DNA from: an uncultured Phycisphaerales bacterium
Lineage (GTDB): Bacteria; Planctomycetota; Phycisphaerae; Tepidisphaerales; Tepidisphaeraceae
DNA: 64,000 nucleotides
NCBI GenBank assembly: GCA_963758525.1
Contig: CAVWVQ010000005.1
Location: 298,471 to 362,470, forward strand
Reading direction: 5' to 3'
Made by a program: the position numbers and the translations under genes. The first letter of the stretch is position 1; every line of letters begins with the position of its first letter. Below are positions 42,270 to 45,379 of this stretch, piece after piece. The notes below the pieces were generated by a model that saw only the letters and a program-made list of their open reading frames with translations, searched no databases and had not been told where the DNA came from.

Positions 42270-43184
42270 TTACTGCGCGGACGCAAGCGGTTTAGCAGGA
42301 AGACGGAGCTTCATGTTGGGGTGAATGCTGCCGTTTCCCTTTAACACATCAGCATTTAAGTCTTTGATTGCTGTCCAAGCGCTCCCGTTGCCGAGTTGAT
42401 CGGCGGCGATGCTCCAAAGGCTGTCATTCTCCTTAACAGTATACCAGAACTGGGCTTGATCACTCGCTGCGGGGCTCGCAGCGACCGGCGCGGTCGGTGT
42501 CGCTGGGACTTGCGTAATTGGAAGGGGCTGCGCACCCGTCGGCTGGGCGTCAGCCGCGCTCCCGGGAATGATGTATGCCCGGCCGACGATGATTTTGTTC
42601 GGATTGGACTTTAATGACGGATTTGCATTCACGATCAGGTCGCGATTGGCCTTGGTGTTCCCGCCGAGGAATCGTCCCGCGAGCCGGTTGAGCGTATCGC
42701 CAGCCTGTGCCGTATATTTGCGGGCAGTGTTCCCGCCGGCCGGGACGCTGGTGGAATCGGCGCCGGAGGCGCCGATGATCGGCTCGCCGTTGGCGCGAGC
42801 CACTTCCTGAAGCGACCCGGGCTGCCCAACCTGGGAGGCGGGGCTGTCACCATTCTTGCCCGGCTCTGAGGGGACTTGAGTGACGGTAACCTGACGGATC
42901 TGAATCGGCGTGTTGTTGCCGCCAGGACCGACTCGCACGATGCTTTGGCCTGGGTCGCTATGGGTGGAAACGGTATCGCGCGGGGTAATGTTTTGTGTGA
43001 CGACGGTGATCGGCGGGGGGTCTGTCACCGGCGCCGCAACGCTGTCGCGCACGTTGCCGGCCGTGTTGGTCAGCGGAGCCGCGACCGGCTCGGTTGTCGA
43101 AGACATGTGGTCGGAGAGAAGGATTCCGATCACGATGATGAACGCCAGCCCGACTAAGAGCCCGATTTTCGTTTCACGTGTCAT
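42270..43184 (-). CDS. Membrane-anchored protein with two LysM domains
   Basis: TM LLVGLAFIIVIGILL; YTAQAGDTLNRLAGRF and YTVKENDSLWSIAADQLG..LRLP. Confidence 0.88.
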   Translation of the reverse strand: MTRETKIGLLVGLAFIIVIGILLSDHMSSTTEPVAAPLTNTAGNVRDSVAAPVTDPPPITVVTQNITPRDTVSTHSDPGQSIVRVGPGGNNTPIQIRQVTVTQVPSEPGKNGDSPASQVGQPGSLQEVARANGEPIIGASGADSTSVPAGGNTARKYTAQAGDTLNRLAGRFLGGNTKANRDLIVNANPSLKSNPNKIIVGRAYIIPGSAADAQPTGAQPLPITQVPATPTAPVAASPAASDQAQFWYTVKENDSLWSIAADQLGNGSAWTAIKDLNADVLKGNGSIHPNMKLRLPAKPLASAQ

Positions 43185-43247: not shown

Positions 43248-44201
43248 CTATGCAATCTTCTCGGCAACGCGGAGCTTGGCGGAGCGGGAGCGGGGATTGC
43301 GGTCGGATTCGAGCGGCGAAGGAGTGACGGGCTTTTTGGTAAGCACCTTCATCTGCCCGGTCTGCTCCGCCGACCGAAATGCCTGCTTGACCATCCGATC
43401 CTCCGTCGATTGAAAACTGATCACCGCCGCGCGTCCCCCGGTTCGCAACAGCGATGGTCCTGCCTTCAGCAGGGCCGCGAGGTTCTCACGTTCCCGGTTT
43501 ACTGCCATGCGCAGGGCCAGAAACGTGCGGGTTGCCGGATCAATTCTCTGCGGGGCTCCGCCCCGCGCCGGTATTGCCGAGCGAACCAGCTCGGCTAACC
43601 GATCTGTAGTCGTAATCGGCGAGATGGCGCGGGCCTGTCCAATCTTTCTGGCGATTCTGCGTGAATAACGCTCCTGTGCCAGTTCATATAGGACGTTGGC
43701 CAAATCTGTCTCGGAGAGAAAATTCACCAGATCGGCGGCGGATTTTTCGGTCCGCGAGTCGATGCGCATGTCCAACGGCATGGGCTGGCGGAACGACATC
43801 CCATATTCCGTTTCGAAGAGCTGGTTGGTGCTGATCCCCAAGTCTGCAAGAAATCCATCCAGCGCTTCGACGCCTGCGGCGGAGACGACATCCGGCAGTT
43901 CCGAAAAGTTGGCGTGAAAGAAACGGACCTGGCAGGGGGCGTCGCGGAGCCGGTCGCGGGCAAATTGCAGATTTCGCGCATCGGCGTCGATACAGAGCAG
44001 GGTGCCATTGGGCGCCAGCTGCCGTGCAAGGAGGAGCGAATGCCCGCCTCGGCCGGTGGTGCAGTCGGCGAAAATTTGACCGGGACGCGGGGCGGTCAGT
44101 TCGATCACTTCGCCGGCAAGCACCGGCTCGTGACCGTGCGGCGCCGCTTTGCTTTCAACGGTGAAAGGATTTTCGTTGTAATTATCGTTATCGTCTGCCA
44201 T
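43248..44201 (-). CDS. rsmH: 16S rRNA m4C1402 methyltransferase
   Basis: HEPVL, DCTTGRGGHS, ADLGISTNQL, PLDMR, PATRTFLALRMAVNRE, ISFQSTEDRMVK, NPRSRSAKLR. Confidence 0.96.
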   Translation of the reverse strand: MADDNDNYNENPFTVESKAAPHGHEPVLAGEVIELTAPRPGQIFADCTTGRGGHSLLLARQLAPNGTLLCIDADARNLQFARDRLRDAPCQVRFFHANFSELPDVVSAAGVEALDGFLADLGISTNQLFETEYGMSFRQPMPLDMRIDSRTEKSAADLVNFLSETDLANVLYELAQERYSRRIARKIGQARAISPITTTDRLAELVRSAIPARGGAPQRIDPATRTFLALRMAVNRERENLAALLKAGPSLLRTGGRAAVISFQSTEDRMVKQAFRSAEQTGQMKVLTKKPVTPSPLESDRNPRSRSAKLRVAEKIA

Positions 44202-44396
44202 AATGTGCGGGTTCGGTCGATGTTCGTGAGGCACTACACTCAGAAGACTGGTGGAGCGTTCCCAGACCTCCGCGATGGCAGCATTAGTGTAAGAGTAATC
44301 GACCGACGCTGACGTGAGCGTTTGCAATAGATGCGCCGGAGTGATCCGGCGCAACTGATGCCGCGGCACAATTGCTCGCGGCATAAACGCAGAGCC

Positions 44397-44860
44397 GGGG
44401 CTCCGCCCCCAAGCGATCTCCCAGGATCGAAAGGCCCCATCCGTGGGGCGACTCCACGTGCACAAATGCCGAGGCGCGATCCGTCGCGCTTTAAACCACC
44501 GCAAGCCTGCCTTGGCTTTGCGTGCGCGGTTCCCGCTGGACGAAGCTGCGCGATCCATCGCGCGAGCTTCGTCAGCGGGCGCCAGGCGGTTTCGCGTGTG
44601 ACCAGGGGCGGCTTCACAACCCAAACGCCGCTCCACGCCGCACTTTCCGCATGACCACTGCCGCATCCTTGCGGCATCACCGTTCCCCCAGCCTGCGATC
44701 CGGCATCCATGCCTTTCGCCCGGCGAGGTTGACGGGCGAGGCATCCTGCCAGCGGCCCGTCACCGGTGGATCATTCGGCAGAAACCTTTGCCGACCAATC
44801 CGTTCAATTGTTGAAGCCTGCCTTCCCTGGAAGTGGCTTCGACGGCAATCCTTCGCCGTC
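44397..44860 (-). ncRNA. Candidate structured RNA with multiple GGA-loop hairpins (CsrB/RsmZ-like architecture) in the mraZ-rsmH spacer
   Basis: At least eight stem-loops with GGA in the minus-strand loop, e.g. TGCCGCA-AGGA-TGCGGCA (44659-44676), GCCCCA-CGGA-TGGGGC (44434-44449), GCGCGA-CGGA-TCGCGC (44474-44489); boundaries approximate. Confidence 0.55.
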
Positions 44861-44896
44861 TCCTGAATGTCGTCCCACTGCCGCGGCCACGCCCGG

Positions 44897-45379
44897 TTAC
44901 GAAATGCTTGAATCCGGGTTCGCGGGTCCGCTGCCTTTTCTCTTCTGATCCATTATTTCTTTACGTCTCTCATGCAGGTCGTCCAGGTGCGCGTTCCAGT
45001 CTGCTCGATTCCAAATCTCGCAATGATCTCGCGAGCCAATCACCGTCACCGCACTCTCCGTTCCAGTTCGTTTCCTCAACGTCTCGGGAAGCAAGACCCG
45101 GCACTGTTTGTCAACCGCGACCAAATGAGCCGTCGGAAAATTAAGATGGTCGAAATCGAGCGCGGCATCCGCAGCCAATAGCGCGGGTGTCTCCTGCTTG
45201 ACGAGCTGCTCGTAGTACTTCTCGGGGTAGAGCCAGATTTTGTTATTTTGCCCGAGGATGACAAAGAGGTTGGCCTCCCGCTCCGGCACAATCGAATTGC
45301 GGATGGCAGAGGGAATGAGCATGCGGCTCTTTTCGTCAAGGCTGATGTCATAGGATCCAAAAAGTAAGCCGTAGGTCAC
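44897..45379 (-). CDS. mraZ: Division/cell wall cluster transcriptional regulator MraZ
   Basis: FGSYDISLDEKSRMLIP and VDKQCRVLLP (two DxxxR SpoVT/AbrB repeats), IGSRDHCEIW; upstream of rsmH. Confidence 0.9.
   Translation of the reverse strand: MTYGLLFGSYDISLDEKSRMLIPSAIRNSIVPEREANLFVILGQNNKIWLYPEKYYEQLVKQETPALLAADAALDFDHLNFPTAHLVAVDKQCRVLLPETLRKRTGTESAVTVIGSRDHCEIWNRADWNAHLDDLHERRKEIMDQKRKGSGPANPDSSIS

What the first reader, a model, noticed from the sequence alone, without database searches (positions are those of the whole stretch)
44202..44896. Candidate CsrA-binding RNA: array of GGA-loop hairpins between mraZ and rsmH
Seen: mraZ and rsmH, usually nearly adjacent, are ~695 nt apart. The sense (minus) strand forms consecutive hairpins with unrelated stems but GGA-containing loops: GACGGCGA-AGGA-TTGCCGTC (44841-44860), GGCA-GGA-TGCC (44740-44750), GGCA-TGGA-TGCC (44702-44713), TGCCGCA-AGGA-TGCGGCA (44659-44676), GCGCGA-TGGA-TCGCGC (44548-44563, topping a stem spanning 44532-44579), GCGCGA-CGGA-TCGCGC (44474-44489), GCCCCA-CGGA-TGGGGC (44434-44449), CGATC-CTGGGA-GATCG (44414-44429) and GGGGC-GGA-GCCCC (44397-44409). 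By hand count there are about 19 GGA on this strand versus about 4 on the other in 44390-44880. Known: A(N)GGAU in hairpin loops is the CsrA/RsmA site, and arrays of it define CsrB/RsmY/RsmZ sponge RNAs of Gammaproteobacteria; planctomycete genomes commonly encode CsrA homologues, although none is in this window. Inference: an RNA inside the division operon that titrates CsrA or puts rsmH-lysM-ftsL-ftsI under CsrA control, linking Csr regulation to FtsZ-less division. I know of no description of such an element.
Basis: partly seen in the sequence, partly recalled or inferred. Interest (0 to 1): 0.88.

Follow-up and report, generated by a model that had tools for sequence, protein, structure and literature searches.

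The report
Candidate CsrA sponge RNA behind mraZ
Right after the cell-division regulator gene mraZ, this planctomycete and its whole family carry a conserved, predicted-to-fold, non-coding stretch whose hairpin loops show the binding motif of the translation regulator CsrA, so it is likely a decoy RNA that soaks up CsrA, a strategy so far shown mainly in Gammaproteobacteria, here in cells that also encode the protein antagonist FliW.

Summary
Observation confirmed: all nine hairpins are exact; GGA 19 vs 4; the densest A(N)GGA-hairpin cluster of the genome. The element (about 44380-44896, minus strand) is family-wide (likely Tepidisphaeraceae): GGA sits in 152 of 303 predicted loops vs 2 of 285 antisense, and a covarying four-way-junction core was found in 92 of 121 genomes. 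It follows mraZ, not rsmH, in six genomes where the two are apart, which argues against an rsmH leader. The same loops mark the fliW and csrA leaders (61 of 126 vs 1 of 132), pointing to CsrA as ligand. No Rfam match. A conserved opposite-strand promoter, often with a box shared with lexA and recA promoters, points back into the RNA's 3' end. Best reading: an mraZ 3'-UTR CsrA sponge alongside FliW (0.6). Expression and binding are untested. The scan reported similar RNAs on other DNA five times; the antisense promoter/box was not found in my word look-up.

The parts
44897..45379 (-). mraZ, host gene; the RNA is predicted to be its 3' UTR
   Evidence: ORF; Pfam MraZ 77 bits; element follows mraZ in 23 of 23 + 15 of 16 + 40 of 40 family loci
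44380..44896 (-). Predicted non-coding RNA with an array of GGA-loop hairpins (8 of 13 predicted loops); 5' end unknown, 3' end placed at the core's closing helix
44841..44860 (-). First A(N)GGA hairpin (8 bp)
44813..44840 (-). Conserved 5' anchor hairpin with CAGGGAAGG, followed by an A+U-richer linker
   Evidence: anchor within 260 nt of the mraZ stop in 52 of 86 family loci
44474..44750 (-). Variable middle: five GGA hairpins (44740-50, 44702-13, 44659-76, 44548-63, 44474-89)
   Evidence: GGCAYGGA-type hairpin in 18 of 23 family loci
44606..44633 (-). Hairpin with a conserved non-GGA loop motif GGTTGTG, unexplained
   Evidence: 24 of 86 loci vs 2 antisense
44380..44470 (-). Conserved 3' core: predicted four-way junction. 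P1 44450-57/44389-96, P2 44434-49 (loop ACGGAU), P3 44410-33 (imperfect here), P4 44397-409
   Evidence: model R1 hit 53.3 bits, single copy in the genome (this sequence was in the training set)
44211..44225 (.). Candidate LexA (SOS) box, GAAC-N7-GAAC type, over the predicted start of the antisense promoter
   Evidence: same motif upstream of lexA (14 of 23) and recA (11 of 18) in the family, 9 of 23 after the core, 0 of 23 inside the RNA
44176..44204 (+). Predicted sigma70-type promoter (TTGTAA-17-CATAAT, extended -10) pointing back into the RNA's 3' end
   Evidence: conserved on the opposite strand in 43 of 61 loci vs 8 of 61 on the sense strand
43248..44201 (-). rsmH (downstream gene; not required next to the element)
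   Evidence: Pfam Methyltransf_5 297 bits; detached from mraZ and the RNA in 6 of 23 family genomes

Best explanation
The roughly 520 nt after mraZ are a conserved, non-coding stretch predicted to fold into a multi-hairpin RNA that likely binds several CsrA dimers and would titrate them away from flagellar and other mRNAs (a sponge). It is likely made as the 3' tail of the mraZ transcript (possibly released by processing), so its level would follow the promoter of the division cluster rather than a BarA/UvrY-type system. It would act beside FliW, which these genomes also encode, on a CsrA whose own operon leaders carry the same loops. A predicted opposite-strand promoter just past the 3' end, often overlapped by a candidate LexA box, would end or silence the RNA. 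Shown: sequence, conservation, covariation, linkage to mraZ, csrA/fliW presence. Inferred: transcription, processing, CsrA binding, titration, activity of the antisense promoter, LexA binding.
For: GGA-in-loop: 152 of 303 loops vs 2 of 285 antisense and about 25 in shuffles in 23 genomes; held-out 215 of 581 vs 16 of 573 (40 genomes) and 100 of 327 vs 5 of 309 (23 genomes where the core model failed). Bases around GGA follow (G/C)CA-N-GGA-U-G, close to the SELEX consensus RUACARGGAUGU (PMC7652899, passage). Core: 68 of 78 have all four helices with <=1 mismatch; P3 pairs 0.93 vs 0.63 after arm swapping, 38 both-side changes at one pair; GGA kept in P2 loop 73 of 78 and P4 loop 72 of 78; 23 both-side cells, 0 of 500 shuffles. 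G-U outnumbers A-C on the mraZ strand (P1: 61 vs 9, counted by hand). Travels with mraZ. csrA in 24 of 24 and 28 of 28 family genomes, fliW in 23 of 24. CsrA aligns with solved CsrA structures, best 5dmb_D. fliW leader is the second-ranked A(N)GGA cluster of the genome; 61 of 126 loops vs 1 of 132 in 20 relatives, csrA leaders with GGA loops in 17 of 20. Outside the class, GGA loops behind mraZ are 52 of 300 (antisense 7 of 309) in csrA+ genomes and 26 of 408 (antisense 18 of 409) in csrA- genomes. Precedent: RsmW from a 3' UTR (PMC4950607, abstract).
Against: No expression or binding data. No U-tailed terminator on the minus strand here; only 26 of 55 loci have a U-rich window after the core, so a discrete sRNA is not implied. 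No sense promoter was seen inside the element. csrA co-occurrence is confounded by kinship: all family genomes have csrA, and outside the class only 2 of 35 csrA+ genomes have >=3 strict hairpins vs 2 of 49 csrA-. Six to ten sites on an mraZ tail may be too few copies to titrate CsrA. CsrA homologues differ in target recognition despite GGA loops (PMC13443453, abstract and passages). The conserved core and the GGTTGTG loop are more than a plain sponge needs and are unexplained.
Confidence: 0.6

Rival explanations
1. Cis-acting CsrA element in the mraZ 3' UTR: CsrA binding changes mraZ mRNA stability or termination/read-through into downstream genes; titration of CsrA is incidental.
For: Always attached to mraZ, single copy; no strong terminator; fliW and csrA leaders show that this lineage uses multi-hairpin cis sites; in other families a short GGA leader precedes a small ORF at the same place.
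Against: Downstream genes vary (rsmH, bioA-like, toxin-antitoxin-like, scpA-like), so read-through control has no fixed target; hairpin number and spacing vary freely (254-1038 nt), as in sponges. Not exclusive of the best explanation.
Confidence: 0.22
2. Leader that puts rsmH-lysM-ftsL-ftsI translation under CsrA control.
For: Lies upstream of rsmH on the same strand in 17 of 23 training genomes.
Against: Stays with mraZ and is missing upstream of rsmH in 6 genomes; last GGA loop is about 195 nt from the rsmH start here, median core-to-rsmH gap 250 nt; ANGGA 16.8 per kb in the RNA vs 5.0 in the gap.
Confidence: 0.04
3. A structured RNA bound by another GGA-loop reader or with another job (e.g. 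divergent housekeeping RNA such as 6S), the CsrA likeness being secondary.
For: Conserved four-way core and GGTTGTG loop; no 6S RNA found in this 91%-complete genome; the 3' end superficially recalls RNase P RNA (recalled).
Against: RNase P, tmRNA and SRP RNAs lie elsewhere; no Rfam match at E<=10 or in 12 relatives' loci; multi-branched fold, not a rod; same loops at fliW/csrA.
Confidence: 0.11
4. Chance, a DNA repeat (REP-like), or an N-terminal extension of RsmH / a hidden small protein.
For: A 498-codon frame runs from 44744 into rsmH; GC-rich DNA folds easily.
Against: Shuffle tests; stems are unrelated and the core is single-copy; the long frame exists in 1 of 34 loci; no frame of this spacer has a blastp partner in 22 relatives; G-U-rich covariation.
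Confidence: 0.03

Closest known systems
CsrB/CsrC of E. coli and RsmX/RsmY/RsmZ of Pseudomonas (CsrA/RsmA sponge sRNAs)
   Same: Non-coding, many short hairpins with ANGGA loops (PMC7366521 and PMC7652899, passages); cognate CsrA present.
   Different: No Rfam homology; Planctomycetota; sits behind mraZ; no clear own promoter or U-tailed terminator; conserved four-way-junction core; coexists with FliW, which Zere et al. found anti-correlated with BarA-UvrY (PMC4682653, passages).
RsmW of Pseudomonas aeruginosa
   Same: [quoted passage not shown]
   Different: About 520 nt here vs 120/400-nt bands there; host gene is mraZ; family-wide covarying core; no Rfam match.
flaA mRNA leader of Campylobacter jejuni (mRNA-derived CsrA antagonist in a FliW system)
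   Same: RNA titration of CsrA in a FliW-encoding cell (PMC4894983, passages).
   Different: flaA is a coding CsrA target with two GGA loops in its 5' leader; this is a dedicated non-coding 3' array of 4-12 loops outside the flagellar genes.
mraW RNA motif of Actinobacteria (recalled, not from a call)
   Same: Structured RNA between mraZ and rsmH (mraW).
   Different: Recalled as one hairpin in the rsmH leader; no Rfam hit here; this element follows mraZ.

Membership tests
Csr/Rsm sponge sRNAs (CsrB/C, RsmX/Y/Z) | Multiple A(N)GGA motifs displayed in hairpin loops | tested here: met
Csr/Rsm sponge sRNAs (CsrB/C, RsmX/Y/Z) | Non-coding | tested here: met
   No conserved frame; computational only
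Csr/Rsm sponge sRNAs (CsrB/C, RsmX/Y/Z) | Cognate CsrA encoded in the genome | tested here: met
   Three Pfam matches, one a typical CsrA over the NCBIfam cut-off
Csr/Rsm sponge sRNAs (CsrB/C, RsmX/Y/Z) | Homology to an Rfam CsrB/CsrC/RsmX/Y/Z/W model | tested here: not met
Csr/Rsm sponge sRNAs (CsrB/C, RsmX/Y/Z) | Intrinsic terminator at the 3' end | tested here: inconclusive
   None in the window; U-rich window after the core in 26 of 55 loci
Csr/Rsm sponge sRNAs (CsrB/C, RsmX/Y/Z) | Own promoter activated by BarA/UvrY (GacS/GacA) | not tested
   UvrY box and orthologues not searched; no strong sense sigma70 site inside the element
Csr/Rsm sponge sRNAs (CsrB/C, RsmX/Y/Z) | Discrete stable transcript | not testable with these tools
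   Needs RNA-seq or Northern
Csr/Rsm sponge sRNAs (CsrB/C, RsmX/Y/Z) | Binds and titrates CsrA in a GGA-dependent way | not testable with these tools
   Needs EMSA and a reporter
RsmW-type 3'-UTR-derived decoy | Fixed position at the 3' end of a protein gene | tested here: met
RsmW-type 3'-UTR-derived decoy | Processed from the host mRNA | not testable with these tools
   RNase E/G family gene present and an A+U-richer linker are only compatible with it
Housekeeping RNAs (RNase P, tmRNA, SRP, 6S) | Match to the family model | tested here: not met
   RNase P, tmRNA, SRP found elsewhere; 6S not found anywhere
LexA (SOS) operator, for the box at 44211-44225 | Same motif upstream of lexA and recA in the lineage | tested here: met
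   14 of 23 and 11 of 18 vs shuffle mean 0.4; pattern written after seeing this genome's boxes
LexA (SOS) operator, for the box at 44211-44225 | Bound by LexA and induced by DNA damage | not testable with these tools
   Needs EMSA and mitomycin C RNA-seq

The most novel reading that the evidence does not exclude
Tepidisphaeraceae run a dedicated CsrA sponge and FliW together, and wire the sponge to the cell cycle and DNA damage: it is made from the mraZ (division-cluster) transcript, and a LexA-repressed antisense promoter at its 3' end fires on SOS induction, silencing the sponge and mraZ and blocking read-through into rsmH-ftsL-ftsI, a SulA-free checkpoint linking division and flagellin synthesis. 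The sponge arose independently from the CsrA-site leader of a small ancestral gene behind mraZ that this family lost.
Probability: 0.2. Interest if true: 0.86.

Novelty: new variant of a known kind. Interest (0 to 1): 0.68.

Why it matters
A 2020 review says it 'remains to be determined' whether FliW and sRNAs act together on CsrA in any species (PMC7652899, section 8); another calls the two mechanisms mutually exclusive (PMC7366521, passage), and Zere et al. list Planctomycetes among groups that may use FliW (PMC4682653). This RNA is a concrete, family-wide test case, and in vitro or heterologous assays need only the RNA and an 83-residue protein. If true it shows independent origin of a CsrA sponge outside Gammaproteobacteria, tied to the division cluster of a phylum that divides without FtsZ (PMC12283558, search listing). 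The conserved antisense promoter with a candidate SOS box also offers a LexA motif for this lineage.

Tried and rejected
Rfam scan of the region and of 12 relatives' loci: no relevant hit. Nucleotide BLAST to 40 relatives: 0 of 40; homology needed synteny and a covariance model. No RNA holder listed for the region; not evidence either way. RsmH N-terminal extension and hidden peptides rejected. REP-like repeat rejected; the one denser GGA array is a tandem palindrome. RNase P, tmRNA, SRP rejected. The RNAalifold consensus on the MAFFT alignment mis-paired P2 and missed P3, so model R1 lacks P3 and misses divergent members (29 of 121 negative; arrays are still there). A first unanchored junction parse (37 of 79) was circular and mis-registered; replaced. 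Core pattern absent from viral contigs. The search for related loci gave one irrelevant locus. The protein atlas gave no answer for the small ORF; Pfam gave no family. A recalled name 'GGAM' proved to concern guanidine riboswitches (listing). A weight-matrix scoring of the candidate LexA box trained only on lexA/recA promoters was not obtained, so the box claim rests on fixed patterns. csrA/array co-occurrence across the phylum is weak by the strict count and kin are not independent. No complex or structure prediction was run.

Full report
Observation. The spacer between the mraZ stop (44897) and the first rsmH ATG (44201) is 695 nt. All 9 of 9 quoted hairpins are exact, and GGA is 19 vs 4 by strand in 44390-44880. 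GGA in loops closed by >=5 Watson-Crick pairs: 7 observed, mean 0.69, 0 of 2000 dinucleotide shuffles; GGA count alone is weaker (11 of 2000). Folding z is -4.15. For A(N)GGA hairpins per 500 nt the spacer ranks first in the 6.47-Mb genome. Rfam has no match.

Lineage and regulators. The cluster holding this genome's CsrA has a representative named Tepidisphaeraceae bacterium, so family f1 is likely that family. The genome has fliW-csrA-flagellin on contig C3 and two further CsrA-like matches. csrA was found in 24 of 24 sampled family genomes and fliW in 23 of 24 (tallies include unpublished G004, on which no claim rests alone), and csrA in 28 of 28 further ones. The CsrA aligns over its length with solved CsrA chains, best 5dmb_D.

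Conservation. BLAST finds nothing in 40 relatives, but synteny does. In 23 family genomes with DNA behind mraZ (G015 cut by a contig end, G004 left out), GGA lies in 152 of 303 predicted hairpin loops, against 2 of 285 on the other strand and about 25 in shuffles (8 per genome); the flanks read (G/C)CA-N-GGA-U-G, close to the SELEX consensus RUACARGGAUGU (PMC7652899, passage). A 90-nt 3' core is present in 23 of 23. A model of it finds one copy here, 92 of 121 genomes of the order, all family f1, training genomes included, and 0 of 120 genomes of other families of the class. Of 69 non-training hits (G004 included) I examined 56: 15 of the top 16 lie 403-895 nt behind mraZ, the other being cut by a contig end, and 40 of 40 weaker ones have mraZ in the locus, with GGA in 215 of 581 loops vs 16 of 573. 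Of 29 model-negative genomes I examined 28 (nine handles inferred from numbering gaps): 24 gave an mraZ hit, 23 had DNA behind it, with 100 of 327 loops vs 5 of 309. So the array is family-wide and the core is the conserved part in most members.

Structure of the core. Anchored parsing of 78 cores (one dropped for Ns) gives a four-way junction without unpaired linkers: 68 of 78 have all four helices with at most one mismatch each. P3 changes sequence freely yet pairs (0.93 vs 0.63 after swapping arms, maximum 0.685 in 1000 swaps; 38 both-side changes at its third pair). GGA stays in the P2 loop in 73 and the P4 loop in 72 of 78, in P3 only 34. Registers of P2-P4 were chosen to maximise pairing, and kin are not independent, so this is not an R-scape test. 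On the plain alignment 23 cells change on both sides, 0 of 500 shuffles reach that, and slid partners fall from 84% to 58% or less. G-U outnumbers A-C on the mraZ strand (P1: 61 vs 9, hand count), which fixes the folded strand.

Which gene it belongs to. In G003, G012, G019, G020, G021 and G024, neither mraZ nor the core lies within about 5.5 kb upstream of rsmH; mraZ is on another contig and array plus core follow it, with unrelated genes after. ANGGA density is 16.8 per kb up to the core and 5.0 per kb between core and rsmH; the gap is 76-638 nt (34 loci; a few anchors in this call were set one hairpin early). The 498-codon frame into rsmH is peculiar to this genome (1 of 34) and no frame of this spacer has a partner in relatives. 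The element is therefore a non-coding tail of mraZ, not an rsmH leader.

Evidence that CsrA is the ligand. The second-ranked A(N)GGA cluster of the genome is the leader of fliW, directly upstream of csrA. In 20 of 23 relatives with fliW that I fetched, the 220 nt before fliW have GGA in 61 of 126 loops vs 1 of 132; csrA leaders have GGA loops in 17 of 20, often over the ribosome site (purine-rich ribosome sites contribute). The motif thus concentrates on the CsrA module itself, as autoregulation would predict. Across the phylum the picture is weaker: csrA in 65 of 160 sampled genomes; among those I could fetch, >=3 strict hairpins behind mraZ occur in 28 of 40 csrA+ class members, 0 of 1 csrA- class member, 2 of 35 csrA+ and 2 of 49 csrA- genomes of other classes. 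By folded loops, outside the class: 52 of 300 (antisense 7 of 309) with csrA, 26 of 408 (antisense 18 of 409) without.

Ends, and an opposing promoter. There is no U-tailed terminator on the minus strand here, and 26 of 55 loci have a U-rich window after the core. Instead a sigma70-type site points back at the RNA: TTGTAA-17-CATAAT at 44176-44204 on the plus strand. With a hand-made score applied equally to both strands, 43 of 61 loci reach 22 on the opposite strand, 8 of 61 on the sense strand, and 0 of 60 inside the RNA; 4 of the 6 rsmH-detached genomes keep it; predicted starts lie from about 1 to 337 nt from the core, in some too close for any gene other than an antisense RNA. A GTTY-N7-GTTY repeat lies in this stretch in 21 of 61 vs 1 of 61. 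The same kind of box overlaps this genome's lexA and recA promoters and occurs upstream of lexA in 14 of 23 and recA in 11 of 18 family loci (3 of 21 recA loci left out as cut; shuffle mean 0.4), after the core in 9 of 23 and inside the RNA in 0 of 23. Score and pattern were written after seeing examples. That GAAC-N7-GAAC is a LexA box type in Alphaproteobacteria is recalled. LexA binding and promoter activity are inferred.

Origin. Elsewhere in the phylum the place behind mraZ often holds an unannotated 75-90-residue ORF (38 of 125 loci, with or without csrA; profile seeded from 7 of them), never in family f1 (0 of 23, and none in the further loci). G034 has array plus ORF; G029 and G038 have a short GGA leader with the same CAGGGAAGG hairpin before the ORF. 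This suggests, without a tree test, that the array grew from a CsrA-site leader of that gene.

Mechanism and odds. Most likely (0.6) a trans-acting CsrA sponge made with the mraZ transcript and working beside FliW; next (0.22) a cis CsrA element on the mraZ mRNA, not exclusive of the first; another ligand or job 0.11; rsmH leader 0.04; chance or coding 0.03. Nothing here shows expression or binding.

Prior knowledge. It works like CsrB/RsmZ and sits like RsmW but is not a member of those Rfam families. Papers seen: PMC4682653, PMC7366521, PMC4894983, PMC13443453 (passages, abstract for the last), PMC7652899 (passages and most of section 8), PMC4950607 (abstract and outline), PMC5737381 (main-text word search, no hits; supplements not read). 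Searches of the held library for CsrA with Planctomycetes/Phycisphaer/FliW/sRNA, for mraZ-rsmH intergenic elements, and for motif screens listed no description of this RNA; subscription papers and supplements of motif screens could hold one. The scan's own notes list five similar candidates on other DNA; they are unchecked AI notes and not counted as support. A word look-up for the antisense promoter and LexA box returned nothing.

Noticed in passing
G000:C3:4289700-4289880 (+), L001; relatives L254-L273: The fliW leader carries several GGA-loop hairpins and the fliW, csrA and flagellin ribosome sites lie in GGA motifs: candidate CsrA autoregulation or a second sponge.
   Followed up: partly
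L283 (G000:C3:4270297) and recA promoter near G000:C3:3580300; L284-L325: Candidate LexA box of the family, RAACA-N5-YRAAC, often doubled before lexA; 14 strict matches in this genome.
   Followed up: partly
L044:3726-3944 (+), L048:450-707 (-) and others: Unannotated 75-90-residue protein family between mraZ and rsmH in 38 of 125 Planctomycetota loci; no Pfam family; no homologue found in this genome.
   Followed up: partly
L059, L061, L078, L111, L114 (family f16, another class, 7-17 csrA matches per genome): A different structured element behind mraZ with a shared GCTACCGGGC hairpin, several GGA loops and, in two genomes, a U-tailed terminator.
   Followed up: no
window 44606-44633 (-): Conserved GGTTGTG loop motif in 24 of 86 family RNAs; not a GGA site; unexplained.
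   Followed up: partly
G000:C3:4444750-4445550: Long tandem array of about 35-nt units each holding a palindrome, downstream of a putA-like gene; REP-like.
   Followed up: no
G000 whole genome: No 6S RNA found with the Rfam model in this 91%-complete genome.
   Followed up: no
window 44199-44204: The annotated-style rsmH ATG overlaps the -10 hexamer of the antisense promoter; no ATG/GTG start was found upstream of the RsmH match in two relatives, so the true rsmH start is uncertain.
   Followed up: no
G000:C3:2033062-2033505 (-), L003: A 147-residue protein that starts like CsrA and matches the CsrA profile again near its end, possibly a tandem CsrA-like fold.
   Followed up: no
window 42270-43184 (-): Membrane-anchored LysM protein between rsmH and the small ftsL-like ORF, with a weak match to the SOS division suppressor YneA (E 1e-4, below cut-off).
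   Followed up: no
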